In this document: positions 18,523 to 32,823 of the stretch, in pieces
Position numbering within the stretch: the stretch's first letter is position 1
How the letters are laid out: each line of letters starts with the position of its first letter
Source: a phage
Sequence record: PZ171033.1
Length of the DNA: 64,000 nt
Direction: 5' to 3' (one strand)
Position numbers and translations under genes: made by a program
Notes under the pieces: model-generated
What the model was told of the DNA's origin: nothing
What the model saw: only the letters and a program-made list of their open reading frames with translations
Database searches by the model: none

Positions 18523-19225
18523 TCTGGTAGGTGGCTCAGAAGCTGCTGCTATTTGTGGTAGTGTTCGTAATTCTGATGCTATTGCTTATCAGGATTCTGG
18601 ACGTGTCGGCTCCATACATAGCATTTATCATCACTGTACTTATACTTTGGAAACTCAGTGATAAAAACGGTGGTGACAAGCCGCCAGAGTAACAACAACA
18701 ACCGAACCAGTGGACTTTAATACTCTCCGAAGTCCACAGGTTCAATCTAAACTAAGCGGAAAAGTTAGCTTTTTCTTGGGTGTAGAACCTGTTGAAGGAA
18801 ACAAAGAATTTCACATTGAATAGTTAATATCGTAAAGGGTTCTGTTAGAATCCTTTGAGATAGGAACTCCTATCATAACTATTCTTAACTTAATCTTTGC
18901 CGTATGGCACTGACGCTAGGGGTGGCCCCCCATCCGTCAGGTAGACTATTTTAAGAATGGGTTATCACAGCAAATGTAAAGCAACATTCGGGTTAATCAA
19001 TGGCCTCTCCCTATAGGGGCCATTTCTGAATCTTAGGCTATATCCCAAAGGTTAGTATCTTTGGGATAAGGCTTCAGATCTCTTATCAACTAACGCTCAT
19101 GTTGAGCATTCTACTCACACAAGCCCCTATATGGGCTGGGTTAAATGTCGGATAGCATAGCTACCTACAGCATCGAGATGTTAGGTCTTACATGTAATAT
19201 AGGGTATAAAGGGAGGACTCGTCCC

Positions 19226-19242
19226 CTCCCTCCTATTATAAT
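19226..19242 (+). promoter_or_regulatory. promoter-like motif copy 1 (CCTATTATAAT)
   Basis: C-rich tract + TATAAT directly upstream of tRNA-like element. Confidence 0.3.
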
Positions 19243-19243
19243 G

Positions 19244-19313
19244 GTCGGGGTAGCACGTAGGCATGTGCGGATGGTCGCTACTTCCCTCGCTGGTTCGAAT
19301 CCAGCCCCCGACT
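19244..19313 (+). tRNA. tRNA-like element (non-canonical anticodon arm)
   Basis: 7/7 acceptor stem GTCGGGG/CCCCGAC, D arm GCAC/GTGC, T arm GCTGG-TTCGAAT-CCAGC; anticodon arm does not pair canonically by hand. Confidence 0.35.
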
Positions 19314-19864
19314 TACTGACATCCTATCAATGAGTACATTAGGCTAACGTGCGGAGGTTTACACTGTAGCCGGTGTAGGTGGAGAAGACGGCAGGGTAGC
19401 TACCTGTGCTTAGTGTACTCTTTGATAGTTTTCGTAAGCGATTATGCGGTTTTTTAGAAACGAACCAATAACATAAATGCAAACGATGATGTTGTTCTGA
19501 TGGCGGCGTAATAGCCTGTAAGTCAGCAAGGTCTTCCGACTCCTTGTAAGCAAATTCGGCGCAGTGGCCCGCTGTGATTAATAATGGGCACACAACAGGT
19601 AAGAGCATTTAGGCTACTGAGAAATCATCCGAGGCAATCAGACCTATCTTCTGTTAAGTGCTCTTTCCGTTGTGGTGAATGCGCAGGCTGATGCGCAGTG
19701 GGACGTGGCTGACTCACGAGGATGGCTCAAGCGAATAAGCAAGCTCGACGCCGCCGAATAAGCGCCTTATGCCGGAGATCAGCACCGGCCACCACAACAA
19801 GTCCAGACGATATCTGAGTGACTATAAAAACAGATGGAGCCAGGTGGAATCCCTGGCAACTAAT

Positions 19865-19930
19865 TCCGGTGTAGGTACTAGTGTCGTGCACGGCATGAGC
19901 ATTCTGGTTCGAGTCCAGACGCCGGAACCA
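19865..19930 (+). ncRNA. short tRNA-like element with encoded CCA
   Basis: Acceptor TCCGGTG/CGCCGGA, T arm TCTGG-TTCGAGT-CCAGA, 3' ACCA; only 31 nt between acceptor and T stem. Confidence 0.3.
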
Positions 19931-19932
19931 AT

Positions 19933-20056
19933 TATCAGTTGCACGAGATGGCTTGACATGTTCAAGTTTGGACTAAGTGTGACACCGCTAGATTGGAGGG
20001 CTGCTGCGGTAAGCTATAGACTCCAACCGGAGGTTCGAATCCTTCACTGATAACCA
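19933..20056 (+). ncRNA. 124-nt tRNA-like RNA with encoded CCA
   Basis: T arm GGAGG-TTCGAAT-CCTTC, 3' ACTGATA-A-CCA; only complementary 5' strand TATCAGT is 122 nt upstream. Confidence 0.25.
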
Positions 20057-20414
20057 ATTCAAAGTAGCATTGCACTAACCCATCCCGGAGTTCAAAGGCC
20101 AAACATGGAGCAGTGCTACTCTGAATTAGAAGAATTATGGTGGGTCTGGTGAAGTAGATAGGGTTCGATTCCCTCCGGTAGAGTAATCTACTAGCGTGCT
20201 TGGTGCACGAATAAGACTTAATACTGGTGGTTCAATTCCATCCCCCACTGCCTATTTGAGGTGTAACAGTTAAATCCAGTTGCCGGAAGTGCTATTCTAG
20301 ATACGCTGCCAATGTGTGAACGGTAAGGCTGTACAGGACTCGGACTCCCACCTCAAACCAAAGTCGCCAGATACTTATGGCAAACGGGTAGTAACGAACT
20401 AGTCATTCGTCAAA

Positions 20415-20432
20415 CGCCCACCCTATTATGAG
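20415..20432 (+). promoter_or_regulatory. promoter-like motif copy 2 (CACCCTATTATG)
   Basis: Near-identical to copy 3. Confidence 0.3.
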
Positions 20433-20610
20433 TCAGCAAGAACGCCTTCATTTAAACTTAAACAAAAAAGCTTAACGCAATAATTATGTAGGGGTATGTA
20501 AGGATTGCGAAGAAGGAGCCAGTTAAAGTCTGGCATGACTCACCTAATTGAGGCTGTACTTATGTTCTACAGTAGGTGCACAACACTGGGCTGCTACACC
20601 CAGAGGTACA

Positions 20611-20628
20611 GCCTCACCCTATTATGGG
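20611..20628 (+). promoter_or_regulatory. promoter-like motif copy 3 (CACCCTATTATG)
   Basis: Near-identical to copy 2. Confidence 0.3.
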
Positions 20629-20693
20629 TAGCCTATACTAGTTATAGGGCAGATAATCTGTGGCAGTGTAAGGCTGCACTACCCTTTCATTAA

Positions 20694-20769
20694 TACCCGG
20701 TAGGCTTAGTGGTAAAGCCCCACTAGTAAACCAACTAGGACGCAGGTTCGAATCCTGTCCGGGTAGCCA
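20694..20769 (+). tRNA. tRNA-like gene with encoded CCA (6-nt anticodon loop)
   Basis: Acceptor TACCCGG/CCGGGTA, D arm GGCT/AGCC, T arm GCAGG-TTCGAAT-CCTGT, discriminator G + CCA; anticodon stem CTAGT/ACTAG with 6-nt loop. Confidence 0.4.
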
Positions 20770-20774
20770 TTTAT

Positions 20775-20859
20775 GCCCACTTAGCTCAGTGGTAGAGCGC
20801 AGGAAAGCTTCGAGAGAACAAGGTGTCTGTGGTCACTGGTTCAAATCCAGTAGTGGGTA
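20775..20859 (+). tRNA. tRNA-like gene, 85 nt, no pairable anticodon arm
   Basis: Acceptor GCCCACT/AGTGGGT, canonical D arm TAGCTCAGTGGTAGAGC, T arm ACTGG-TTCAAAT-CCAGT; 36 nt between D and T arms with no 5-bp/7-nt stem-loop. Confidence 0.4.
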
Positions 20860-21174
20860 CTTATTTGCTGCAATATTCCCATAGGGAATGGTGTCGTATA
20901 CGCCACCTAGTTTCTGGTGAAACTCCAGATGCAGCAATCCATTCAGCAGTAACATAGTCCTGATTGCATTGCACTCTAAAGACAACACTGGTAAGACAGT
21001 CCAGTGGCTGCTATTGTATTGTTATTCCCCTCGACGGGAATTTCGCTAGTGAAGGTAACACTTAAAAATCCAAACCCACGTCTTACTGCTATCGGGCTAT
21101 CAACCCACAGTCGCTTAACACACTAGTGGTAGTAGTTTGACGACCTAGCCTCGTTAGCTGCGTTAAAGCTACTA

Positions 21175-21210
21175 AGTCCCCTAGAGGGGCGGCTCTAGGG
21201 GACTTTTTTA
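21175..21210 (+). terminator. strong intrinsic terminator
   Basis: 12-bp stem AGTCCCCTAGAG/CTCTAGGGGACT then T6. Confidence 0.7.
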
Positions 21211-22407: not shown

Positions 22408-25400
22408 TTAGTTTATCAGGTTCATCCAAGGGTTCAGGTTGTGAGCACGTAAGCCTTGACCGAAACCGAAGGAGTAACCAAGATTGCCCTGTGCAGCAAT
22501 ACTAAAGATGTTGTCCTGAATAGGCAGGCCAACGTTACCAAACATGGTAGGGGTTGGGGCCAACATAGCCATAGCAGCATGAACTGGGTTATTACGAATC
22601 ATGGACACTGCAACTTTTGCAGAACGAATCTTAAAGTTGTAGAACCACATCAGACCAACACTTTCCATATACCCACGGAAACGACCTGGCAGACGATCAT
22701 AGTTAATAAACTCTTCCGTTACACGTCCTAGTGCTTCTTCGCGAGTCTTACCTTTACGCTGAGTTAATTCATCATAGATGATTGCTTTAGCAATAAAGTC
22801 AGAGTACTCAACCGTCTTCTGGATACCCTGGAACAAAGCAGTATCCTTAGTGATAAGTGCATAACGACCAGCATTACGTACAGACTTAGGCAGCTTATCA
22901 GCCAACTTATCCATGTACTCGTGAAGTTTACCTTCAGTAATCAGGATGTCGTCACGACCAATACCAGCGTCTGCAATTGAAGAGAACTCACCTGCTTCTA
23001 ACAGGGGCCAGATACTCAAACGCTTATGACTATCAGAGATGGACTGAATCTCAGCCTTAAGTTTACGAATCTGGTTCGGGTTAGTAGCTGCACGTAATTC
23101 TGCTTCTGCATCTACCTGACGCAGACGAGATTTCAGATACTGGTTAATCTCAGCAGTTTTCTGTGGAATGCTCTTAGCAATGTTCTTAACAGGTACACCA
23201 CGAGCAACCATCTGGTAAAGGTTAGCCAGGAAGTTAACAGCAGGTACGACTACTGACTTAACTACAATCAGGGTCTTAGCTTCTTTAACTAAATTCTGAA
23301 CCAGGTTCTCACCACCCATTACGTATTTATAGGCACGGTTACCGAAGACACCCAACATAGCTTTCTTGAAGGTATCCAGTGTTTCTTGGGACCAACGAGA
23401 GTTACCAGACCAGGCATCACCAACAGAAGCTGCACGATAGCCGAGAGCATCATTGAGCATGTCACGACGTACCCACAGCTCACCAGGACCAAACAGACTT
23501 TCTGCTTTCTGACGTGTTTCACTATTCATCAGCTTAAGTGCATCGGCAGTTACTGGGTCCAGTTTAGAACCAAGAAGGTTAACGTACTGGGACTTATTAG
23601 AAGCAGACATCTTAATGTCGTTCTCATACATGCTATGCAGGTTCTCAATTAGCATATCGTTGAAACGCTGAGCCTTAGCCTCTTCTACCTGACGACCACG
23701 CCATACACCGATTGCACGAGCAAGATGGTTCTCACCCTCAATGTGCTTCAGCATGTTAGGGTCAATGGATTGCTCATAAGCAACCACATTACCATTGGCA
23801 TCATATACAGGCAGAAGTGGTTCATTACCACGTTCACCACGAGCCAGTGCTTTAGTGATACGATCTACAGAAGGCTTGTCAGTAATACGACCAGCTACCA
23901 TGGTTCCCATAGTAAAGCCTGTACCAAGGTCCACACCACCAGCAGTATTGCGAACGTTCTGTAAGATACCCTGTGAGAATGGGGCCTGTGCCTGTACTGG
24001 TGCGAAGTAGTAGCTACGAGCAGGACCACGATTAGCAGAGCTACCCTGATATGTACCCAGTCGTACATAGGATTTCTCAATCAAATCAGCAAACTGACTA
24101 TCTTCAGCAACAATCAGATTAACACCCTGTTTAGTCTCACTAGGGATATGCCCTTTGTACTGGTTCAGGGTTGCACGCATATCAGATTTGGCTTTAGCCA
24201 TTTCATCTTTACGCTGACCAACCAGGTAAGAGGTGGCAAAGTCCATCCCATCAACTTCTGTCTGAGCCAGTGAAGATAACATCTCACGGTCGGACTTGTT
24301 CATTGCTTCCAGTGCATACAGGGTAATCAGTTTATCCAGTTGAGCTACATCTACAGTAGAGCGTGCAGCCTGACGTTCACCCAGCATACGGGAGATTGCA
24401 GTAGCATTACGCAGCAGGTTTTTACCGACAGTACCATTAATCATGTACTGAGCCAGTTGCTTAGATTTACGGTTAATCAGAGGCCAGTTACGACCAGCTT
24501 GTTTCTGCAAATCTGCTTCCAGCTTATTCACTTCACGGTCAACAATCTTCTGGTCAGTCAGTAAGTCACGGATTTCAGCCAGTGACATAGTGTCACGCAG
24601 GACAGCTAAATCTGTTTTACCCATACCAGTATGCATTACTTTCCACTCATCATTAGTCAGCTTACGGCTGAACTTAGATGCGATAGTAGTAGGCAGATGT
24701 TCACGGAACTGCTGACGGTCTGCCTGCACCTGTGCACGTACTGCTTTAATCAAATCGTATACAGAAGCATTGCTCTTAGTACGACCGGTTAAGTCATTAA
24801 CCAGGTCATGGAAAGGTTGCCATACCTTACCCTGGTTCATTGCAGCCATAACACCTTCAGCTACGATTGCACCATTCTTCTCTGTAGCAATAGCAGCTAC
24901 CAGTTGTGCAGCATGAGCAGCACCTTTAACCAATGGATTATTGGTATTGGCTGCAACTTCACGAGCACCTTCCAAAGCACGGGTAGATAGTACATCAATA
25001 GAATCCACCAGATACTGGTTAGCACGGTCAATAGCATTACCAGTAGGAGTAGCAACGGAATCATAGAAGGATTCTGCATTAAGACTGGTCTGCATAATCG
25101 TCTGAGCCAGTGCATCCATACCTTCCTGTACGTTAGTAGCTTTAGTATCACCTGCTACACGAGCATTCAGACTAGCCATTGCAGCAGTACCAATGTTAGT
25201 CAGCATTGCATCAACGGTATTACCTGATTTCTTATCTGCTTTCATGACAGGAATGTCAGCCAGTACTTTACGTACTTCTTCACTTACCATTGCCAGACCA
25301 ACAAAGGTAGGCAGTAAAGAAGATCGACCTTGTGCATCAAACTCAATGTTGTTAGCACCCATGATGGTATCGAACTTCTGCTGTGCATAATAACGATCAG

Positions 25401-28400
25401 CAGGGTTAGTACTATCTGGGTCAGCCATAAATGCTTCGACGGTCAGATTCTTAGTAACATGCGTGTAGTATTCCTGTGCACGAGCCATAGCAGCAGGGTT
25501 AACAGCAGCCTCGGTAGCCAGTGCAGCAACAATATTGGTAAAGAGACGCTGTTCCTGCATATTCATGGTGAAGCCATGAGCCTGAACATCACGAGTTACT
25601 TTAGTTGCATTTACTACTGCATCAGAGAACTTACCTTTGCGAATTACTTGCTGTACTGGTTCTGAACCAATGTAGTTAGTAATTAGCTTATCAAAGGTTT
25701 TCCCTAGCTCTTCCAGACGAGTATTTTCACCATACGCTTTGTTATGGAACAGAGTAGTATCTTTGGCTACAGCAGCAGTAGGAGCTTGCCCACGCATTAC
25801 TACAGCAGAGTTAAACAGTAAGCCAGAGAACATATCTTCTGCATTAGCAGGAGCTTTCTTACGTCCAAATACCAGACGTTTGATTGCTTCATATACAGCC
25901 TGAACCATAGTTTTAAGTGCAGTGGTTTTCTTCTGCTTACTAATCAGTTCTCGGTTGGTTAAACCCCAAGCCATGTACTCGTTCAGTGCAGCAGCTTTAG
26001 CCATTGCTGGTTCAATAAAGCCATTGGATAGGTGACCATTAATGGTATTCAGTGCATCAGCATATGCTTCTCGTACTGCCGGAGATTCATCCCTAACATC
26101 CAGAGCACGGAACTGATTCATCAGGTCTTCGATGTTCTGGACTGCTTCATTAGGAGTGCCTTCATAGTGAGCCAGTACAGATTCAAAAGTAGAAGCATGT
26201 ACCAATTCATGAACCAGAGTCTCTAAGGAAGGGGTAACTAAGTAGATGGTTTTATCTTCAAAGTTAGTCCAGCCGTATGCATTACCAGCTTCAGCAGCTT
26301 CAATATCTTCCGGTGCTGGGCGAGTAATGTTCTTCTCAATAGCATAGGCATCCAATTGAGCAGGTGTACCGTAAACAACTTTATAGTCTTTAGCAGCAAG
26401 GGATTTCTGTATTTCTTTCAATACTTCTTGCTGTTCAGGAGACATCTCTTTAGCCAGTTTAGTAATGGCAGTGTTAGACAGCAGACGTACACCAGACTTC
26501 AGTACACGACCAACCTGTTCCATCGCCGGTACTTCTTCCACTGGTTCTGCTTTAGTAGCACGTACTGCTTCACGACGCTTATTTAATTCAGCATCAAACA
26601 GTTCGTTCAGCTTAGCTACTTGCTGGTCTACAGTAAGACCTTCCAGAGAGATTTTACCGTTGTTCACATAAGGAGCACCTACGGCAGCCATCTGGTCAAC
26701 AGTGACTTGTACCTGGTCCATTACCTTGTGACGAATATCTACACCCAGAGCAATGTTACGCAGGTTACGTTCAATCTGCTCAGCACCGACACGTAACAGG
26801 TCATCAGTAGCACCCTCACGTTGGTCATACTCCAGAGCAGACTTAGCGATAGCCTGTTTGGTTTCATCAGACAGTTTACTGAAGTCTACGTTCTTCATGA
26901 ACTTAGCGTAGGAGTCATAAACATTCTTGATAGGGTTACCCTGCCAGGAAGTATATACAGCCTCATTAGCTTTGCGACTTGCATCAGTGATGTCATTGAT
27001 ACCAATGTTCATACCATCAAAGATTTTCAGGGTATTCTTCGGAGCACCTTTCATAGTAGAAAGTGTCTGCATCATCATGCCATCACCAGTACCGATGGTC
27101 ATAAATGGAATACCTGCAACACCTGCCTGTGAAGGAGCATAAATGCTCATTGGCACACGCATACGGTCATCTAAGTTAGTAGCCAGTACTTGGTTAGCAA
27201 CATCAGTATTCTCACTACCAGCAATGTAGAAAGTCTGTGAACCAGTCTCAATCATTGGAGCCAGTGAAGATAATGATTCCTGGATTTCATTCAGTTCTTT
27301 CTGCGTTAAGAAATCACCTTTCTTCCAGGTTGGGTCTTTTTCTTTTTCTGCCAGCTTAGCCTGTACTGCTTGCTGGAACATATCCTGCAATACCAGAGAT
27401 TGAATCTGGGTAGCCTTCTGCAAGTTCTCGGTAGAGTGCATCAGACCTTCACCAACAGTATTACGGATACCAGTACGCATTGGTTCAACGAACAGGTGGA
27501 GCATGTTCTCTTGTAAGTTCTTCAGGGCATTACCGGATACGGTAAATTTCTGGGGGTCTAACTTACCAGTCAGAGCACCATCTACTTGCTGAATAGACAA
27601 CTCACCTTTACGCATAACTGGAACATTACCAGTCAGTGCTTCCATAGAAGTAAGGAAAGTATCCAACATAGCCTGAGCATCAGCTTCAGACGCAGCCTCC
27701 TTACCAAACATTGCCATAGCTGGGGAAATGCTAGGGTCAGCAGCTCGTGCTTGCAGAACGTCACTGAAGCGTTCGTAGATGGTATCAGTAATTGCACTGA
27801 CCATCTTGCCAGCAATACCACGAGCACCAGAACCATAGATGGTAATGGTCAGTGGGTTTTTAGCAATACCACGTTTCAGGTCCAGAGTACCGTCTTCATT
27901 CAGGTTAAAGTCTTTAATGAACAAGTCCATTAACTTCTGGAGATGATTCATCTGGCTCATAACTGGAACGTTGTTACGGTAAGTAGTACGTAACTCATTC
28001 AGTGCTTGTTGAAGACCATTGGTAGATGCTTCATACAAGTCAACATTATCGTCGATAGAACAATGTTCGTTCATCGTTTTACCAGCACGACCAAAGAACA
28101 AACCACCTTTGGCAGTGTTCTTAATCCAGTCTGGAGTGAACTTACCACCAGTCATTAATACCATTGCGTTGATTGGGCCGTTGGTTACACCATCAGCTTC
28201 AACGTACAGTGGAGTAGTAAAATTAGCACGGTCATCACTGTTCAGGTAACGGGCATATTCCATCAGAGCCATGAGAGCTACGAAGGATTTATCACTACCC
28301 AGAGAGGTCTTCAGGATGTCTACTGCATCTGTCGGTAAGTGACCAGACTTATCAAACTCAACCATCATATCAACAGCAGGTTTCAGTTTACCTTCCAGAG

Positions 28401-31400
28401 CTTTAGTTAACTCTTCAGACATAACTTCACGGGACATTTTATGTACCTTGATGCCTAATGCCTGAGCCAGACCTAACTGGAAGTCAGAGAACGCTTGGCT
28501 GTTTTCATTACTCAAGTCGATAGTAGAGAAGGTTGGTAGGATTGCTTCACGAACCAGCTTACTGGATTGTGGGTTGTTCTTACCAAGCATCTGCATACGA
28601 CCTACACGGGTCATGTTATAACCGTAGTGGATAGGTGTATCCAGACCATTCTCTTGTTCTCGTATCTGATTAATTACACCGAACAGAGAATCATATGCCA
28701 TAGACACGGACAGGTTTTTACCTTCCAAAGATTTAGCAGTGTTCGCGTTCAGTAATTCTGGATTAAGAGTACCAGCACCCATCAGTTCCAGAATGTTGTC
28801 ACGCCCCAATGCTTCATAGAAGTTAACCATTGGCATATGTACACGGAACTCGGTAGCCTGTTCAGCTTTCAGTGCAGCCTTCTGTTCAGGGGTATTCTTA
28901 ACAGCAGGGTTACGCAACTGAGTCTGAGCCACAGAAGGAATGTCATCACCAAAGTACATTTTCTCTTCTGGTTCTAAGAGGACAGCTTCCTCAATAGCAG
29001 TAGGGAATTTATTAATGGCATCATTGTCATCCAACTTCTCAATGGTATACAGACCAACAGTCTTATTGGAGTCTGGGTCAATCTCAGACACATCCAACAT
29101 AGACTCTTTAACTTCACCCATCTCAATGAGAGAAGACAGAATCTCTGTAGCCATTGCCATTGGGATACCTTTGGTATAACCCAGCGGTGCATTAGGATTA
29201 CGATTCAAACCCCAGTAGGATTCAATCTTCTGAGCCAGTGAGTTAGTAGCTTCAACCAGGGTCTGGGCATTCTCGAACTCAGCCAGAATACCTTCTGGTA
29301 ACAGAGATGCTTCTACGCCTGTAATAGCAGCTACGTCTTTCATATCTTTAATGGCAGCATTCTGTGTAGTAGTCAGTCGCCATTGCAAACCAGCAAGCAC
29401 AGCAGTCTCTAACAACTGGTCGTTGAACTTAAAGGTATCCCCATCTTGTTCAACTATATTCAGCAGTTTGCCACCTACCCAACGGTTAGCTTCAGTACCT
29501 TCTGCAAAACGTTTACCAACGTTCTTATTAGCAAGGAACTTAGCCAGACGTTCAGACAAAGTAGTCTTCAGAGTTTCACCAAAGTCCATTAAGTCCTGAT
29601 AACGCTTAATCACATCACTAGTGAGAGCGTTATTTTCTTTTTGAGTGAATGCCTCAAAGCGAGCAGCAGAAGACAGTGCTTGCTTAATATCAGTCAAAGG
29701 AGATTCTGAACCAATGGTACGGGACTTAGGTTCTTCCGGTAAGGTAAATGCTTTCAGGAACTGGTTCGGTGTCTTTTCATTGTTATAGACAGGGAACACT
29801 GTTTCCATTTCTGTTTTGGTTTCAGCTACTTCCTGGATGGTATCCTCATTCTTGAGAATAGCATCTACTGTTTCAGGCTTAGTAGTAGAGACTTCTTCTG
29901 TTTTTGGACTAGTCTCCTTAGTAGGAGCAGTCTTATTTTCTACCACAGGTTTAGCTTTAGGCTGTACAGTAGTAGTGTCCTCTTGCACTGGTGCAGGAGA
30001 TTCATCAACCTGATTCACTGGTTCATTAGTCTGTTGAGACTGAGTGGCATCAAGACCACCTTGACGGAACTCTTTAACTACCTGGGCAGCAGGCTTGTTC
30101 AGACGTGAATCCAACGAGGTAACTTTCACATGAGAAACATTAAGCTCCGGGTAAGCCGTAGCAAGTGCATTAGCAATATCAGCTACGGTTTTGGCTTCCA
30201 GTCCTACTTGCTGGGCAAACTTAACAGACTTGGTATCGTAAGGATTGACACCGAGGCCAGTACGACTACGTACCCATTCACGGGAAGGCGAGAGAGCCTG
30301 ATAATGAACAGACTTATTCTTATCCGCATTCCCCGAAATCAGATGCTCATTCAACGCTCCGACCTTATTCTGCATGTGCTGGGCGAACTTCATAAAGTCG
30401 CTCAGATAAGCGGAGGCCAAATCGAAGTTACCAGAGTTATACGCAGAACGAATGCGTTTCGCATGTTGCAACGCAGAGTACTGTCCTTCATTAGAACGAG
30501 ACTCGTCGGTTTTAATCTGTTTACTAACAATGTCTTGAGGACGTAAGCCTAGTTCTTCTGCTTTAGCGTCGAACTCACGTGCACCCTGTAACAAGGCAGC
30601 AGCAGATTGCAGGGCAGCACGTTGACGATTCCCCAGTGTAATCTTACCTTCACTTGCGTGCTTCAGAACCATGTTCACTGAATCTGCATCCAGTACTTCT
30701 GGAGACACATCAGCAGCCATAGCAATGTTGTTTGCTTGGGCTTGATTAGCTTCTTCAGTAGCTTTCAGCTTACCTGCTTCAGCCTGTTCCTGAATCATGG
30801 AATGGATGGCACGGAATGCACGGAGTACTTTAGGGGTATTCTGTACGTTAGCCATCAAGCCAGAGAACTGGTCTACGATTGTAGCAGCAGGAGAACCTTG
30901 TTCCAGATTAGCCAGAGCACCTGGGTCACGGTTAATGAAGCTATCCATAGACATGATGTTGTCATACATCTGGATTGCAGCTTCCATTTGAACGTTAGGG
31001 TCTTCAGCAGTATTAACCAGGTCAGCCATCTTCTGAATAGCTTCAACACGGTTAGTGGAACCAGAAACAGCTTCACGGATTGCCGGGTTAGCTTGTTCCA
31101 ATTCTACCGGGTCAAACTTCATTGCCTGAGTTAAGTCAGCAGCATACTGGGTAGCAGCAGCTTTCTCTTCTGGAGTGATGTCCATTGCATCCACTGCTTC
31201 TTGTACAGTTGCCTGTGCTTGTTCTGCCTGAGCAGCAGCTTCCTGTGCAGCAGCATTAACCGTAGCATCAGCTACAGGGGATGCTTGTTCATTACGCTTA
31301 GCAACTTCTTCACCACGTTGAATCAGGATGTTAGTAAGAGGGGATGCAGCTTTTGCTAATGTTTTGCCAACCAGAGAAGCACCAGCCAGGGTAGTACGAA

Positions 31401-32760
31401 GAGCAGGGCCAGCAGAAGCACCAACTGCTTTAACAGTTGTACCAGGAGCTTGAGCAACCCCAGCACTACCGAATCCATAAAGTGCACCCAGACCTGCTTG
31501 CTCACCAACCCCTTTGAGGGTGTCACGGGATGCATCAACGTTTTCTTTGATTGCAGTATTCTGTGCGAACTGACCAAAGCCGGATTGAATACCTTCTTCG
31601 ACTGTTTCACGTAGCATATTAGAACCAGCACCTGCCAGTGAACCTACCTTAAGTGGGTTAAGTTCAAAGCGAGATACCAGTGGACCGGTAGCAGCAGCAA
31701 CTGGAGCAGTTAAGCCAGCAGCAATGATACCTGTTTCAGATGCAGTCTGACGTCGTGCTTCATCAGGAGATAAACCATCAGCAATATGTTGCTGGTAAAC
31801 AGGAGACTTACTTGCCAGTTCTTGGTGGGACATCTTCATGATTTCAGAAGCAGTCTGTTGGTATGCACCACCAGCTTCCATACCACCAATTGCAATAGCA
31901 GGTGCAGCAACACGACCAGCAGACAGTGCAACCTGTGCAGGACGTGAACCTAACCCAGCAGCTAAGGTAATACCTTTAACAGCTTTATCACCTCCTACCA
32001 TTACTTTACCTAATGCAGATACACCACGGATAAGTGGACCACCAGTAAAGAGGGAACCAACACCTTCACTCAGTCCGTCGGAAGCAGCCATACCATTATC
32101 AAGTGTATTAGCAACAGAATCAAAAGCGTCACGACCAATACGAGACAGGGAGGCAACCAAATCGCTCTCTCCGTTTTTTATATCTTGTTCATAGAGTTTC
32201 TGGTTCTTTTGGGCAGAAATCTGGTTCTGATTCTGAACAACTTTACGGGTAGCATTCAGTGCATCAGACTGTAGATTGTGTACACCTTCATTCAACCAAT
32301 CCATCCCGGAAGCAATGGATGCCCCGGCATTATCATTGACCAGACCTGTGCCAAGAGCAGCAATGCCCCCAAGGGTATTAGCAACACCAAGACCAACACC
32401 AGAAAGAGTATCGCCAAATGCTTCTGCGTTAGTACGTTGTTTAGATAAGCCCTGACGTACAACATCAGTAGCATTAGCTCGGCTATTAAGAATCTGTAAA
32501 CCTTGCTCATTACCATACTTATTAATGATTTCTAAGGGAGAGGCTTGAGTGAAATCTGCCTGAAGTGAACCGGGTTCGAATGCACCGATTCCAAGATTAC
32601 CTACTCGTCCAGTCTGGAGATTGTAAGCGTTCTCTGGGGTTAATTGGAAAGGGCTTTGCCCTTGTGCAGCTTGCTTCTGAGAGGTTGCAGTAGAGACATC
32701 GACTTGCTTAGCATTAGTGATGCTGTCTGCGAAACCTGCCAGACGGTCAAATGTTGACAT
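22408..32760 (-). CDS. giant virion-encapsidated RNA polymerase (N4 vRNAP-like)
   Basis: About 3450 aa; T7-like motif B KRGIAKNPLTITIYGSGARG; start set to ATG 32760 with AGGAAAC RBS (ORF track 32778 is TTG). Confidence 0.85.
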   Translation of the reverse strand: MSTFDRLAGFADSITNAKQVDVSTATSQKQAAQGQSPFQLTPENAYNLQTGRVGNLGIGAFEPGSLQADFTQASPLEIINKYGNEQGLQILNSRANATDVVRQGLSKQRTNAEAFGDTLSGVGLGVANTLGGIAALGTGLVNDNAGASIASGMDWLNEGVHNLQSDALNATRKVVQNQNQISAQKNQKLYEQDIKNGESDLVASLSRIGRDAFDSVANTLDNGMAASDGLSEGVGSLFTGGPLIRGVSALGKVMVGGDKAVKGITLAAGLGSRPAQVALSAGRVAAPAIAIGGMEAGGAYQQTASEIMKMSHQELASKSPVYQQHIADGLSPDEARRQTASETGIIAAGLTAPVAAATGPLVSRFELNPLKVGSLAGAGSNMLRETVEEGIQSGFGQFAQNTAIKENVDASRDTLKGVGEQAGLGALYGFGSAGVAQAPGTTVKAVGASAGPALRTTLAGASLVGKTLAKAASPLTNILIQRGEEVAKRNEQASPVADATVNAAAQEAAAQAEQAQATVQEAVDAMDITPEEKAAATQYAADLTQAMKFDPVELEQANPAIREAVSGSTNRVEAIQKMADLVNTAEDPNVQMEAAIQMYDNIMSMDSFINRDPGALANLEQGSPAATIVDQFSGLMANVQNTPKVLRAFRAIHSMIQEQAEAGKLKATEEANQAQANNIAMAADVSPEVLDADSVNMVLKHASEGKITLGNRQRAALQSAAALLQGAREFDAKAEELGLRPQDIVSKQIKTDESRSNEGQYSALQHAKRIRSAYNSGNFDLASAYLSDFMKFAQHMQNKVGALNEHLISGNADKNKSVHYQALSPSREWVRSRTGLGVNPYDTKSVKFAQQVGLEAKTVADIANALATAYPELNVSHVKVTSLDSRLNKPAAQVVKEFRQGGLDATQSQQTNEPVNQVDESPAPVQEDTTTVQPKAKPVVENKTAPTKETSPKTEEVSTTKPETVDAILKNEDTIQEVAETKTEMETVFPVYNNEKTPNQFLKAFTLPEEPKSRTIGSESPLTDIKQALSSAARFEAFTQKENNALTSDVIKRYQDLMDFGETLKTTLSERLAKFLANKNVGKRFAEGTEANRWVGGKLLNIVEQDGDTFKFNDQLLETAVLAGLQWRLTTTQNAAIKDMKDVAAITGVEASLLPEGILAEFENAQTLVEATNSLAQKIESYWGLNRNPNAPLGYTKGIPMAMATEILSSLIEMGEVKESMLDVSEIDPDSNKTVGLYTIEKLDDNDAINKFPTAIEEAVLLEPEEKMYFGDDIPSVAQTQLRNPAVKNTPEQKAALKAEQATEFRVHMPMVNFYEALGRDNILELMGAGTLNPELLNANTAKSLEGKNLSVSMAYDSLFGVINQIREQENGLDTPIHYGYNMTRVGRMQMLGKNNPQSSKLVREAILPTFSTIDLSNENSQAFSDFQLGLAQALGIKVHKMSREVMSEELTKALEGKLKPAVDMMVEFDKSGHLPTDAVDILKTSLGSDKSFVALMALMEYARYLNSDDRANFTTPLYVEADGVTNGPINAMVLMTGGKFTPDWIKNTAKGGLFFGRAGKTMNEHCSIDDNVDLYEASTNGLQQALNELRTTYRNNVPVMSQMNHLQKLMDLFIKDFNLNEDGTLDLKRGIAKNPLTITIYGSGARGIAGKMVSAITDTIYERFSDVLQARAADPSISPAMAMFGKEAASEADAQAMLDTFLTSMEALTGNVPVMRKGELSIQQVDGALTGKLDPQKFTVSGNALKNLQENMLHLFVEPMRTGIRNTVGEGLMHSTENLQKATQIQSLVLQDMFQQAVQAKLAEKEKDPTWKKGDFLTQKELNEIQESLSSLAPMIETGSQTFYIAGSENTDVANQVLATNLDDRMRVPMSIYAPSQAGVAGIPFMTIGTGDGMMMQTLSTMKGAPKNTLKIFDGMNIGINDITDASRKANEAVYTSWQGNPIKNVYDSYAKFMKNVDFSKLSDETKQAIAKSALEYDQREGATDDLLRVGAEQIERNLRNIALGVDIRHKVMDQVQVTVDQMAAVGAPYVNNGKISLEGLTVDQQVAKLNELFDAELNKRREAVRATKAEPVEEVPAMEQVGRVLKSGVRLLSNTAITKLAKEMSPEQQEVLKEIQKSLAAKDYKVVYGTPAQLDAYAIEKNITRPAPEDIEAAEAGNAYGWTNFEDKTIYLVTPSLETLVHELVHASTFESVLAHYEGTPNEAVQNIEDLMNQFRALDVRDESPAVREAYADALNTINGHLSNGFIEPAMAKAAALNEYMAWGLTNRELISKQKKTTALKTMVQAVYEAIKRLVFGRKKAPANAEDMFSGLLFNSAVVMRGQAPTAAVAKDTTLFHNKAYGENTRLEELGKTFDKLITNYIGSEPVQQVIRKGKFSDAVVNATKVTRDVQAHGFTMNMQEQRLFTNIVAALATEAAVNPAAMARAQEYYTHVTKNLTVEAFMADPDSTNPADRYYAQQKFDTIMGANNIEFDAQGRSSLLPTFVGLAMVSEEVRKVLADIPVMKADKKSGNTVDAMLTNIGTAAMASLNARVAGDTKATNVQEGMDALAQTIMQTSLNAESFYDSVATPTGNAIDRANQYLVDSIDVLSTRALEGAREVAANTNNPLVKGAAHAAQLVAAIATEKNGAIVAEGVMAAMNQGKVWQPFHDLVNDLTGRTKSNASVYDLIKAVRAQVQADRQQFREHLPTTIASKFSRKLTNDEWKVMHTGMGKTDLAVLRDTMSLAEIRDLLTDQKIVDREVNKLEADLQKQAGRNWPLINRKSKQLAQYMINGTVGKNLLRNATAISRMLGERQAARSTVDVAQLDKLITLYALEAMNKSDREMLSSLAQTEVDGMDFATSYLVGQRKDEMAKAKSDMRATLNQYKGHIPSETKQGVNLIVAEDSQFADLIEKSYVRLGTYQGSSANRGPARSYYFAPVQAQAPFSQGILQNVRNTAGGVDLGTGFTMGTMVAGRITDKPSVDRITKALARGERGNEPLLPVYDANGNVVAYEQSIDPNMLKHIEGENHLARAIGVWRGRQVEEAKAQRFNDMLIENLHSMYENDIKMSASNKSQYVNLLGSKLDPVTADALKLMNSETRQKAESLFGPGELWVRRDMLNDALGYRAASVGDAWSGNSRWSQETLDTFKKAMLGVFGNRAYKYVMGGENLVQNLVKEAKTLIVVKSVVVPAVNFLANLYQMVARGVPVKNIAKSIPQKTAEINQYLKSRLRQVDAEAELRAATNPNQIRKLKAEIQSISDSHKRLSIWPLLEAGEFSSIADAGIGRDDILITEGKLHEYMDKLADKLPKSVRNAGRYALITKDTALFQGIQKTVEYSDFIAKAIIYDELTQRKGKTREEALGRVTEEFINYDRLPGRFRGYMESVGLMWFYNFKIRSAKVAVSMIRNNPVHAAMAMLAPTPTMFGNVGLPIQDNIFSIAAQGNLGYSFGFGQGLRAHNLNPWMNLIN

Positions 32761-32823
32761 AGCATGTTTCCTGTTCAAACTTATATCGTATATAGGTAAC
32801 TTACTCTACAGTAAGCCAGTTAA

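What the first reader, a model, noticed from the sequence alone, without database searches (positions are those of the whole stretch)
20551..20684. Two further structured elements: a 10-bp inverted repeat and a cloverleaf-like 59-nt element
GAGGCTGTAC (20551-20560) pairs perfectly with GTACAGCCTC (20597-20606) around an inner hairpin. At 20626-20684 a closing stem GGGTAG/CTACCC encloses three hairpins (CCTATA-CTAGT-TATAGG, CAGA-TAA-TCTG, GCAG-TGTAAGG-CTGC), a four-way junction without tRNA sequence signatures.
Basis: seen in the sequence. Interest (0 to 1): 0.45.

Follow-up and report, generated by a model that had tools for sequence, protein, structure and literature searches.

The report
Phage tRNA-array structured RNA cassettes
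Both elements are real, conserved RNA folds sitting as separate "cassettes" among the tRNA genes of an N4-like coliphage, and the first belongs to an unannotated RNA family found in the tRNA clusters of more than 350 enterobacterial phage genomes.

Summary
The window is an N4-like coliphage (Gamaleyavirus). The finding lies in a 2.5-kb non-coding array of tRNAs and tRNA-like RNAs (18700-21210, + strand) that ends at a strong terminator.

It has a 13-bp closing stem, a 4-bp hairpin capped by CUACAGUAGGUGCAC, and a hairpin with a GCUACA loop. That 15-nt loop is nearly invariant, while the stems covary, in T5-like, Vi01-like and N4-like phages. BLAST finds 351 phage records, always inside tRNA clusters on the tRNA strand and never annotated. 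Rfam 15 has no match.

Element 2 (20626-20684, coordinates exact) is a compact four-way junction. This fold is the minimum-energy structure in 7 of 8 homologues and has compensatory changes in its hairpins. In most relatives the closing stem is followed by N-CCA. It occurs only in a few Gamaleyavirus and Kaypoctavirus genomes.

The cassettes appear in all combinations between genomes. My best reading is that they are small RNAs cut from the tRNA precursor and act in trans on a conserved host factor. Function and expression are untested.

The parts
20549..20616 (+). Cassette B: three-way-junction RNA, a member of the widespread 'CUACAGUAGGUGCAC-loop' family
   Evidence: Model R3 scores it 61.8 bits, E = 5e-16. 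The fold has z = -3.2. The sequence is identical in 7 Gamaleyavirus genomes or contigs.
20549..20561 (+). B, P1 5' strand (TGAGGCTGTACTT). It pairs with 20604-20616 (AGGTACAGCCTCA).
   Evidence: The P1 columns covary across the family: 6 of 7 pairs change on both sides. L175 has GGGGAATAAT/GTTATTCCTC instead.
20563..20585 (+). B, P2 hairpin: stem TGTT (20563-66) / AACA (20582-85) with 15-nt loop L1 CTACAGTAGGTGCAC (20567-81)
   Evidence: L1 is identical in T5-like, most Vi01-like, Ithacavirus and N4-like members. All 3 P2 pairs covary.
20586..20603 (+). B, P3 hairpin: CTGGG / CCCAG with loop L2 CTGCTACA (20591-98)
   Evidence: GCTAC in L2 is invariant. The stem differs between lineages: CGG/CCG, GCGG/CCGT, GGAG/CTCC, GAGG/CCTC.
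20617..20625 (+). Linker CCCTATTAT. CC follows the closing stem and C20617. CCTATTAT (20618-25) occurs only 3 times in the window, each time directly before a cassette.
20626..20684 (+). Cassette C: 59-nt perfect four-way junction (mini-cloverleaf)
   Evidence: Model R1 scores it 87 bits. RNAalifold independently recovers the closing stem and hairpins 1 and 3.
20632..20648 (+). C, hairpin 1: CCTATA-CTAGT-TATAGG. The loop plus closing A gives the palindrome ACTAGT.
   Evidence: Three pairs carry compensatory changes: CCTATA/TATAGG, CTCGTA/TACGAG, CCCGTA/TATGGG. The loop is invariant.
20649..20661 (+). C, hairpin 2: GCAGA-TAA-TCTGT
   Evidence: It is replaced by GCATGT(T)...(G)ACGTGT in the Klebsiella phages. 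G.U becomes A-U at the base pair. The loop is variable.
20662..20678 (+). C, hairpin 3: (G)GCAG(T)-GTAAG-(G)CTGC(A)
   Evidence: The sequence is invariant except U.G to C-G in L178, and G-C / U-A at the outer pair.
20685..20693 (+). C 3' tail and linker TTTCATTAA. T-TCA here corresponds to N-CCA in KKP3715, L246, L247, L254, L250, KP8 and K60PH164C1.
20429..20542 (+). Context: cassette A, closed by TGAGTCA/TGACTCA, conserved in about 60 Gamaleyavirus records
   Evidence: fold z = -3.4.
20694..20859 (+). Context: two atypical tRNA genes (20694-20766 and 20775-20859) directly downstream
21174..21205 (+). Context: intrinsic terminator (13-bp stem plus T run) that closes the RNA array

Best explanation
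Both elements are genes for small structured RNAs. They are independent cassettes of the phage's tRNA/tRNA-like array.

Shown:
- They lie on the tRNA strand, between a conserved cassette A and two tRNAs.
- Each is closed by its own terminal helix.
- They are separated by short A/U-rich linkers.
- They are gained, lost and swapped as whole units between related genomes.
- Their helices are kept by compensatory and G.U-type changes that work only on the + strand.

Cassette B is a member of an undescribed family of three-way junctions: P1, then P2 capped by the near-invariant 15-nt loop CUACAGUAGGUGCAC, then P3 capped by a GCUAC loop. The family is spread through tRNA clusters of T5-like, Vi01-like and N4-like phages of Enterobacterales.

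Cassette C is a lineage-restricted tRNA-shaped mini-cloverleaf. In most relatives it has a 7-bp acceptor-like stem followed by N-CCA.

Inferred:
- The array is transcribed as one precursor up to the terminator at 21174-21205.
- The host tRNA-maturation enzymes (RNase P, RNase E, 3' exonucleases) cut the cassettes out as stable RNAs of 60-70 nt, as happens for T4 rnaC and rnaD.
- The RNAs act in trans. They present their invariant loops to a factor conserved among enterobacterial hosts, most plausibly a tRNA-directed enzyme or defence nuclease.
- B possibly acts as a dimer, through the self-complementary GUGCAC in its loop.
For: Genome identity and context.

Absence from relatives: B and C are missing from most relatives, which join cassette A directly to the tRNA. 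The boundaries fall exactly at the closing stems.

Combinations seen:
- A-tRNA1
- A-B-C-tRNA1
- A-B-X-tRNA1
- A-X-C-tRNA1
- A-B-tRNA2
- A-C-tRNA2

Family of B:
- R2 found a homologue in L175 with a wholly different but complementary closing stem.
- A scan for the 15-mer found members in T5-like, Vi01-like and Ithacavirus contigs, all beside tRNA genes on the same strand.
- BLAST of the T5-like version hit 351 phage records, 347 of them near full length, none annotated as RNA.
- The structure test gave 91.8% paired against 70.8% in shuffles (0/500). Ten of 15 pairs changed on both sides. The covariation score was 0.579 against 0.183. Slid controls gave 31-47% paired.
- G.U pairs (GCGG/CCGU; two in the L175 P1) fit only this strand.
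- In Taipeivirus, loop positions 10-15 change from GUGCAC to UGCGCA. Both are 6-nt palindromes.

C:
- The cloverleaf is the minimum-energy fold in 7 of 8 homologues.
- Pairing is 97.5% for the cloverleaf against 90.6% for the rival hairpin, with 3 against 0 double changes.
- With 9 distinct sequences, pairing is 95.5% and 4 pairs change on both sides.
- N-CCA follows the stem in 7 of 10 homologues.

Other checks:
- Rfam gave no match for either element, nor for the T5-like and Vi01-like versions of B.
- There is no E. coli or plasmid counterpart.
- T4 rnaD and rnaC show the same layout in a tRNA cluster...CACCA, then AAUU, then the next RNA.
Against: - No expression or processing data could be consulted.
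- No promoter stands out: 6 sigma-70-like sites against 5.0 expected.
- Both cassettes are dispensable. Among the GenBank phage records that carry cassette A, B is in 2 and C in 2.
- The evidence for C rests on only three lineages. Its control values are modest: 52 of 500 shuffles reach the observed number of double-change pairs.
- The copy of C in this window looks slightly eroded. The first pair is U.U, CCA has become UCA, and a rival hairpin is 1.2 kcal/mol more stable.
- In the T5-like, Vi01-like and Ithacavirus members read, B is not followed by an N-CC/CCA-like tail, so tRNA-like ends are not a family-wide feature.
- RNAalifold prefers pairing L1 with L2 over P2 and P3.
- Trans action, the host target and dimerisation are inference only.
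Confidence: 0.6

Rival explanations
1. They are decaying remnants of tRNA genes: pseudogenes or spacers left in the array, with no function of their own.
For: C has a cloverleaf shape and an N-CCA tail that is mutated in the window, E20 and Kpn16-P2. Its hairpin-2 loop is not conserved. Both cassettes are absent from most relatives. The neighbouring tRNAs are themselves aberrant.
Against: Helices are kept by compensatory changes while loops stay invariant. The 15-nt loop of B is identical across phage families that share no other nucleotide similarity here. C has no significant sequence similarity to any phage tRNA tested: best score 26 against a null 95th percentile of 22 and a null maximum of 27.
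Confidence: 0.12
2. They are cis-acting processing or stability modules. On this reading they are structured spacers that guide or block RNase E, RNase P or exonucleases so that the neighbouring tRNAs mature correctly, and they have no role as free RNAs.
For: They always sit between tRNAs or tRNA-like genes on the same strand. The linkers are A/U-rich, with U at -1 and G at +1 before most cassettes of the window array.
Against: A spacer hairpin does not need a 15-nt invariant loop plus a second conserved loop. B sits next to different tRNAs in different phages: Lys, Gln/Met, or none. Most Gamaleyaviruses mature the same tRNA1 and tRNA2 without B or C.
Confidence: 0.15
3. They act as DNA. Candidates are cruciform or hairpin sites (such as N4-type hairpin promoters), a replication or recombination site, or a miniature inverted-repeat mobile element.
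For: B has perfect 11-bp terminal inverted repeats and is 100% identical in 7 genomes that differ elsewhere. Palindromes (GTGCAC, ACTAGT) sit in the loops. Hairpin 2 of C in this window has a 5-bp stem and a 3-nt loop.
Against: G.U pairs would be A.C mismatches on the other strand. The orientation always follows the tRNAs in three phage families. R3 and R2 score the reverse strand 40-85 bits lower. There is no target-site duplication at the B or C boundaries. The 5-bp/3-nt form of hairpin 2 is not conserved.
Confidence: 0.05
4. The region encodes a small protein (ORF 20505-20693, 62 aa, TTG start).
For: An open frame exists. Some GenBank records annotate short hypothetical proteins across the homologous array.
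Against: The frame spans three independently present or absent cassettes and is destroyed in every genome lacking B or C. Substitutions are paired across stems, not codon-patterned. The start codon is TTG and no similar ORF is annotated in KKP3715.
Confidence: 0.01

Closest known systems
Phage T4 species 1 and species 2 RNAs (rnaC, rnaD)
   Same: They are small stable RNAs of unknown function encoded inside a phage tRNA cluster on the tRNA strand. They sit directly after a tRNA, each ending in ...CCA-like sequence followed by an AAUU-type linker. rnaC carries a T-arm-like hairpin.
   Different: There is no sequence or structure homology. R3 finds nothing in the T4 cluster with filters off; the best hit is 9.8 bits. 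The T4 RNAs are 119-139 nt against 59-68 nt here.
tRNA and tRNA-like structures (Rfam RF00005, clan CL00001)
   Same: C has four helices around a junction, a 6-7-bp terminal stem with N-CCA in most homologues, and lies in a tRNA array. The closing stem plus hairpin 3 would stack to 11-12 bp, the length of an acceptor/T minihelix.
   Different: It has no linker nucleotides at the junction, no D-loop GG or T-loop UUCRA sequence, and no 7-nt anticodon loop. Neither ARAGORN nor the tRNA covariance model finds it, even at E <= 10. It has no significant similarity to any phage tRNA.
Phage-encoded tRNAs that counter tRNA-targeting host defences (PMC10264068, PMC11464382, PMC11555353)
   Same: They share the genomic neighbourhood, patchy accessory distribution and horizontal spread among lytic enterobacterial phages, including T5-like phages.
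   Different: Those are functional decoding tRNAs. B and C cannot decode. A decoy or inhibitor role here is only a hypothesis.
Recalled from memory, not tested.
   Same: B exposes a 6-nt palindrome in a hairpin loop. The palindrome is replaced by another palindrome in Taipeivirus (GUGCAC to UGCGCA). B is a three-way junction with two loops that are complementary over 4 nt (GUAG / CUAC).
   Different: There is no homology. Rfam found no match at all. The genomic setting and biology are different, and dimerisation has not been shown.

Membership tests
B family defined here (tRNA-array three-way junction with CUACAGUAGGUGCAC loop) | A closing helix P1 encloses two adjacent hairpins, P2 and P3 | tested here: met
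   Window 20549-20616 aligns end to end to model R3 at 61.8 bits. Pairs are listed.
B family defined here (tRNA-array three-way junction with CUACAGUAGGUGCAC loop) | The 15-nt P2 loop is CUACAGUAGGUGCAC, and the P3 loop contains GCUAC | tested here: met
   The exact 15-mer is at 20567-20581 and CTGCTACA at 20591-20598.
B family defined here (tRNA-array three-way junction with CUACAGUAGGUGCAC loop) | Lies inside a phage tRNA cluster, on the tRNA strand | tested here: met
   In the window, tRNAs lie at 20694-20859 on the + strand. The same holds for BD13, Vi01, UTK0001, KpS110, IME250, L306, L309 and L261.
tRNA (RF00005), for cassette C | Cloverleaf of an acceptor stem plus three arms | tested here: met
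   The four-way junction is the minimum-energy fold in 7 of 8 homologues and is supported by covariation.
tRNA (RF00005), for cassette C | 7-bp acceptor stem followed by a discriminator base and CCA | tested here: inconclusive
   U1-A72 plus N-CCA is present in KP8, K60PH164C1, L246 and L250. KKP3715, L247 and L254 have U.U at the first pair but keep CCA. The window and E20 have TCA, and Kpn16-P2 has CTA.
tRNA (RF00005), for cassette C | Conserved D-loop and T-loop sequence, 7-nt anticodon loop with U33, recognition by tRNA models | tested here: not met
   There is no ARAGORN call. The Rfam tRNA model gives no hit at E <= 10 on 271 nt or on the KP8 copy. The hairpin-2 loop is 3-7 nt and variable.
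T4 rnaC/rnaD-type stable RNAs | Encoded within the tRNA cluster and co-oriented with it | tested here: met
T4 rnaC/rnaD-type stable RNAs | Sequence or structure homology to rnaC or rnaD | tested here: not met
   R3 with filters off on the T4 cluster gave nothing above 9.8 bits. Only R3 was run on T4; R1 (cassette C) was not.
T4 rnaC/rnaD-type stable RNAs | Accumulates as a discrete RNA processed from the tRNA precursor | not testable with these tools
   No transcript data were available.
Any curated Rfam 15 family (ribozymes, riboswitches, ToxI, pRNA, tmRNA and others) | Match to the family covariance model | tested here: not met
   Only noise below E about 0.4 appeared: c4-a1b1 at 13.8 bits on the wrong strand. 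Nothing was found for the T5-like and Vi01-like versions of B.
N4 virion-RNA-polymerase hairpin promoter (definition recalled from memory: 5-7-bp stem, 3-nt loop, early region) | Conserved short hairpin with a 3-nt loop | tested here: not met
   Hairpin 2 of C has 5 bp and 3 nt only in this window. It is 4 bp/5 nt in KKP3715-type copies and 7 bp/3 nt or 5 bp/7 nt in the Klebsiella phages. The locus lies at the end of the rightward gene block, not at the genome end.
Miniature inverted-repeat mobile element | Terminal inverted repeats plus target-site duplication, with copies at unrelated sites | tested here: not met
   Inverted repeats are present, but there is no flanking duplication (CTAATT ... 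CCCTATTAT). There is one copy per genome, always in the tRNA array. The inverted repeat sequence itself covaries like an RNA stem.

The most novel reading that the evidence does not exclude
Cassette B would be the first-noticed member of a new class of phage RNA. This class is a horizontally exchanged three-way-junction RNA with a near-invariant, partly palindromic 15-nt loop. Unrelated lytic phages of Enterobacterales (T5-like, Vi01-like, N4-like) carry it in their tRNA arrays to bind or disarm a conserved host factor. It could work as an RNA decoy or inhibitor of a tRNA-directed defence nuclease, as a dimerising RNA, or even as a new small ribozyme that helps cut the array. With C and the other cassettes it would define a shared, shuffled pool of accessory RNA genes, analogous to protein anti-defence islands.
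Probability: 0.25. Interest if true: 0.8.

Novelty: new variant of a known kind. Interest (0 to 1): 0.6.

Why it matters
Phage tRNA clusters have recently been shown to be counter-defence loci, yet the non-tRNA RNAs inside them have had no assigned function since T4 rnaC and rnaD were found.

This work gives a precisely defined RNA family with a consensus structure and invariant loops. It has more than 350 genomic instances in therapeutic-type phages of Salmonella, E. coli, Klebsiella and Dickeya. Natural presence/absence variants exist among near-identical N4-like phages.

That makes a clean experiment possible: add or remove one 68-nt cassette and test host range against defence systems. The work also shows that current phage annotation misses these RNAs or mislabels them as hypothetical proteins.

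Tried and rejected
1. The 3' arm was cut off, and the resulting z of -0.4 was misleading. redid the fold.

2. One search scanned the viral collection for GGCTGTAC...GTACAGCC. The pattern is palindromic and unspecific, gave 120+ chance hits, and wasted a scan.

3. Searches scanned for the hairpin-3 15-mer of C. The only true hit was KP8, so C is rare.

4. The single metagenome scan gave five more C copies, mostly KKP3715-like, and added little depth. Four soil contigs carried a partial look-alike hairpin that I did not pursue.

5. I tested the idea that C derives from or mimics tRNA-Tyr. Its hairpin-2 stem GCAGA/TCTGT equals the anticodon stem of the L175 tRNA-Tyr, and the hairpin-3 loop UGUAA resembles U33-A37. 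Local alignment against 45 phage tRNAs scored Tyr at 14-16, below the shuffle null (mean 18.7, 95th percentile 22). The idea is not supported.

6. I considered G3.U70 in the Klebsiella copies of C as an AlaRS identity element. It is not conserved (G-C in the coliphage copies), so I dropped it.

7. A resemblance of B to the ToxI antitoxin repeat (shared AGGUG and UGCUAC, recalled from memory) is at the level expected by chance, and Rfam gave no hit. I dropped it.

8. HDV-like 'theta' ribozymes next to phage tRNAs do not fit. The helix order of C is incompatible with a nested double pseudoknot, and there is no Rfam hit.

9. Host origin is excluded: no match in 5,426 E. coli genomes or in PLSDB.

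10. Literature searches, including the exact 15-mer, found no description. A catalogue of 10,006 candidate viral RNAs exists (PMC10690425), but its tables were not available to check.

Full report
**Where we are.** The 2.5 kb around the finding match N4-like coliphages of the genus Gamaleyavirus (Schitoviridae) at 87-95% identity. The 3456-aa ORF at 22408-32778 (-) lies where relatives annotate the virion RNA polymerase. Between the SSB/RuvC-like gene block and that gene lies a stretch with no convincing ORF, 18700-21210. It contains tRNA genes, T-arm-bearing tRNA-like pieces and a tmRNA-like tag sequence, all on the + strand. It ends at a 13-bp-stem intrinsic terminator at 21174-21205. The finding lies in this array, just upstream of two atypical tRNAs at 20694-20766 and 20775-20859.

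**The observation.**
- The quoted sequences exist, but the first element is mis-placed. GAGGCTGTAC is at 20550-20559 and GTACAGCCTC at 20606-20615.
The correct span, 20547-20618, folds at -28.8 kcal/mol with z = -3.2. The closing helix is 13 bp, T20549-A20616 to T20561-A20604.
- A 10-bp inverted repeat by itself is not unusual. About 10 loci occur in the window against about 4.6 counts in shuffles.
- The second element is exactly at 20626-20684, with the three hairpins as described. In this copy a long G.U-rich hairpin is 1.2 kcal/mol more stable than the cloverleaf.

**Both are cassettes.**
- BLAST of 20440-20700 shows that 20440-20546 (cassette A) is conserved in about 60 Gamaleyavirus records. 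The next 150 nt are present in very few: KKP 3715 in full, PW8 with element 1 only, E20 with element 2 only, and four Klebsiella Kaypoctavirus records with element 2 only.
- In most relatives cassette A abuts the tRNA directly, and the indel boundaries coincide with the closing stems.
- Across GenBank, IMG/VR and metagenome contigs I found six arrangements: A-tRNA1, A-B-C-tRNA1, A-B-X-tRNA1, A-X-C-tRNA1, A-B-tRNA2 and A-C-tRNA2. X is a third cassette.
- In KP8, C sits between different neighbours.
- In the window array, each cassette read is closed by a terminal helix, usually starting U-A. Next comes N-CC(A/U/C)-like sequence and an A/U-rich linker (TAATT, CTATTAT, CATTAAT) that ends in U before the G of the next stem.
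- CCTATTAT occurs three times in 64 kb, each time directly before a cassette.
- T4 shows the same layout around rnaD and rnaC.

**Element 1 (cassette B) is one of a large family.**
- B is invariant in seven Gamaleyavirus genomes, so these carry no covariation.
- A single-sequence model (R2) found a diverged copy in a related contig, L175. There the closing stem is GGGGAATAAT/GTTATTCCTC instead of GAGGCTGTAC/GTACAGCCTC, and the inner stems also differ. CTACAGTAGGTGCAC and GCTAC are retained.
- Scanning IMG/VR for that 15-mer recovered copies in T5-like contigs (106-122 kb), Vi01-like contigs (about 157 kb) and Salmonella N4-like Ithacavirus contigs. All are embedded among tRNA genes on the same strand.
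- BLAST of the T5-like version hits 351 GenBank phage records: Salmonella 242, Klebsiella 38, Escherichia 28, Dickeya 19 and others. They include Demerecviridae, Ackermannviridae and Schitoviridae. In the 60 records listed, the match lies under nothing or under a 'hypothetical protein'.

**Consensus structure of the B family.**
- P1 is 6-13 bp.
- P2 is 4 bp and closes the 15-nt loop L1.
- P3 is 3-5 bp and closes an 8-10-nt loop L2 containing GCUAC.
- On a model-guided alignment of 13 distinct sequences, 91.8% of cells pair against 70.8% in shuffles (0/500). Ten of 15 pairs change on both sides, and slid controls drop to 31-47%.
- G.U pairs and much lower reverse-strand scores fix the strand.
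- One copy in a MAG contig (L348) adds further P2/P3 covariation. There the core appears set inside a larger tRNA-like scaffold.
- Rfam 15 has no match for any version, and the literature library holds no paper containing the 15-mer.

**Features of the B loops.**
- L1 variants are few: CUAC-GUAGGUGCAC in Vi01, CUGCAGUAGGUGCAC in Dickeya phages, and CUACAGUAGUGCGCA in Taipeivirus.
- In Taipeivirus, positions 10-15 change from GUGCAC to UGCGCA. Both are 6-nt palindromes, which is what an intermolecular loop-loop duplex would select. This rests on one lineage.
- L1 GUAG and L2 CUAC are complementary. RNAalifold even prefers an L1-L2 helix (AGUA/UGCU) to P2/P3. Because these bases never vary, neither contact can be tested by covariation. 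The covariation of P2 argues that any L1-L2 contact is tertiary.

**Element 2 (cassette C).**
- Model R1 and one metagenome scan gave ten copies (nine distinct) in three lineages: the window type, the KKP3715/E20 type and the Klebsiella type.
- The four-way junction is the minimum-energy fold in all seven other homologues. It pairs 97.5% of cells against 90.6% for the rival hairpin, with 3 against 0 double changes. On nine distinct sequences it pairs 95.5% with four double-change pairs.
- RNAalifold independently recovers the closing stem and hairpins 1 and 3.
- Hairpin 2 is rebuilt with a different sequence in the Klebsiella phages.
- Loops 1 (CUAGU) and 3 (GUAAG) are invariant.
- With the preceding U, the terminal stem is 7 bp and is followed by N-CCA in 7 of 10 copies. 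The window copy has U.U at the first pair and UCA.
- The junction has no unpaired nucleotides. Closing stem plus hairpin 3 would stack to 11-12 bp, the size of an acceptor/T minihelix.
- It is not a tRNA by any detector and has no significant similarity to phage tRNAs.
- R1 finds no copy in the T5-like, Vi01-like or Ithacavirus loci.

**What they most likely do.**
- Shown: these are strand-specific, structurally constrained, modular RNA genes in a tRNA array.
- Inferred: they are co-transcribed with the array and released by the tRNA-processing machinery.
- Speculative: they act in trans on a factor conserved among Enterobacterales. The invariance of the B loops across phage families that otherwise share almost nothing here argues for a sequence-specific partner common to the hosts. 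The patchy, accessory distribution and the known counter-defence role of phage tRNA clusters (PMC10264068, PMC11464382, PMC11555353) make a decoy or inhibitor of a tRNA-directed enzyme the leading guess.
- Rivals are weighed in their own section: tRNA relics, purely cis-acting processing spacers, DNA-level sites and a small ORF. None explains covarying stems combined with invariant loops across families.

**Limits.**
- There are no transcript data.
- The evidence for C is shallow.
- The B-family alignment samples 13 distinct sequences out of hundreds.
- The alignment used for counting was fitted to the model, which favours the tested structure. The slid and shuffled controls, and the MAFFT alignment it was built from, show the same stems.
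- I could not check whether an uncurated catalogue of viral RNA candidates (PMC10690425) already lists the motif.

Noticed in passing
window 19408-19511: This is a tmRNA-like segment with an open tag frame, GCA AAC GAT GAT GTT GTT CTG ATG GCG GCG TAA = ANDDVVLMAA*. The Rfam tmRNA_permuted model scores it 31 bits, below the 47-bit threshold, and ARAGORN calls no tmRNA. It is 94-96% conserved in Klebsiella phage KP8 and contig L175. It may be a phage-encoded, possibly two-piece, tmRNA.
   Followed up: partly
window 19866-19931 and 19931-20050: Two tRNA-like pieces have an acceptor-type stem, a GGTTCGA T-arm and an encoded CCA, but aberrant or oversized middles. Their order is swapped in KP8. N4 itself shares 19800-19933 at 95% identity.
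   Followed up: partly
window 20694-20766 and 20775-20859: tRNA1 has a 6-nt anticodon loop (ARAGORN reports anticodon 'ac'). tRNA2 has 24 nt where the 11 central anticodon-arm positions (loop plus inner stem pairs) of the Rfam tRNA model should be. The same odd tRNA2 occurs in L168, and a 93% identical copy is in Salmonella phage Vi01 (L342 2756-2826). Other Gamaleyaviruses have a normal tRNA-Ile(AAU) at this place.
   Followed up: partly
window 18700-21210: CTAG is 4.5-fold enriched and the palindrome ACTAGT 12-fold enriched in the RNA array relative to the rest of the window. ACTAGT often falls in predicted hairpin loops: 20398, 20637, and the stem of tRNA1.
   Followed up: no
window 20429-20542: Cassette A is a 114-nt multi-hairpin RNA closed by TGAGTCA/TGACTCA. 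It is conserved in about 60 Gamaleyavirus records and has a fold z of -3.4. KP8 has a diverged counterpart.
   Followed up: partly
L004 1605-1745; L003 about 1690-1815; L176 from 8846: A third exchangeable cassette, X, shares TTGCTGTAAAATGA...CTTCAGAYACAGA. It occupies the slot of B in E20 and the slot of C in PW8.
   Followed up: no
window 20262-20350; L342 1930-1990: Another cassette is 99% identical to phage N4. Its core GCTGCCAATGT...GTAAGGCTG(T/C)A also appears next to the B-family element in Vi01. It shares GTAAGGCTGYAC with hairpin 3 of cassette C.
   Followed up: no
L348 316-418 (MAG contig JAGLOJ010000053): The B-family core (P2/L1 plus P3/L2) appears embedded in a larger RNA with acceptor-, D- and T-arm-like helices, just upstream of an ORF with a Shine-Dalgarno sequence. 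No tRNA detector calls it. This hints that the family may derive from a long-variable-arm tRNA.
   Followed up: partly
L248 13036-13068; L251, L252, L253: Soil metagenome contigs carry TTAGGTAGCTCTTACTAGTTAAGGCCTACCTAT, a hairpin that matches the 5' half of cassette C (GGTAGC...TACTAGTTA) but lacks hairpins 2 and 3.
   Followed up: no
L001 1293-3262 (phage nithesis) and other GenBank records: The homologous RNA array is annotated with up to nine short 'hypothetical protein' CDSs on both strands. One record even places RIIA/RIIB labels over it. These are probably annotation artefacts.
   Followed up: no
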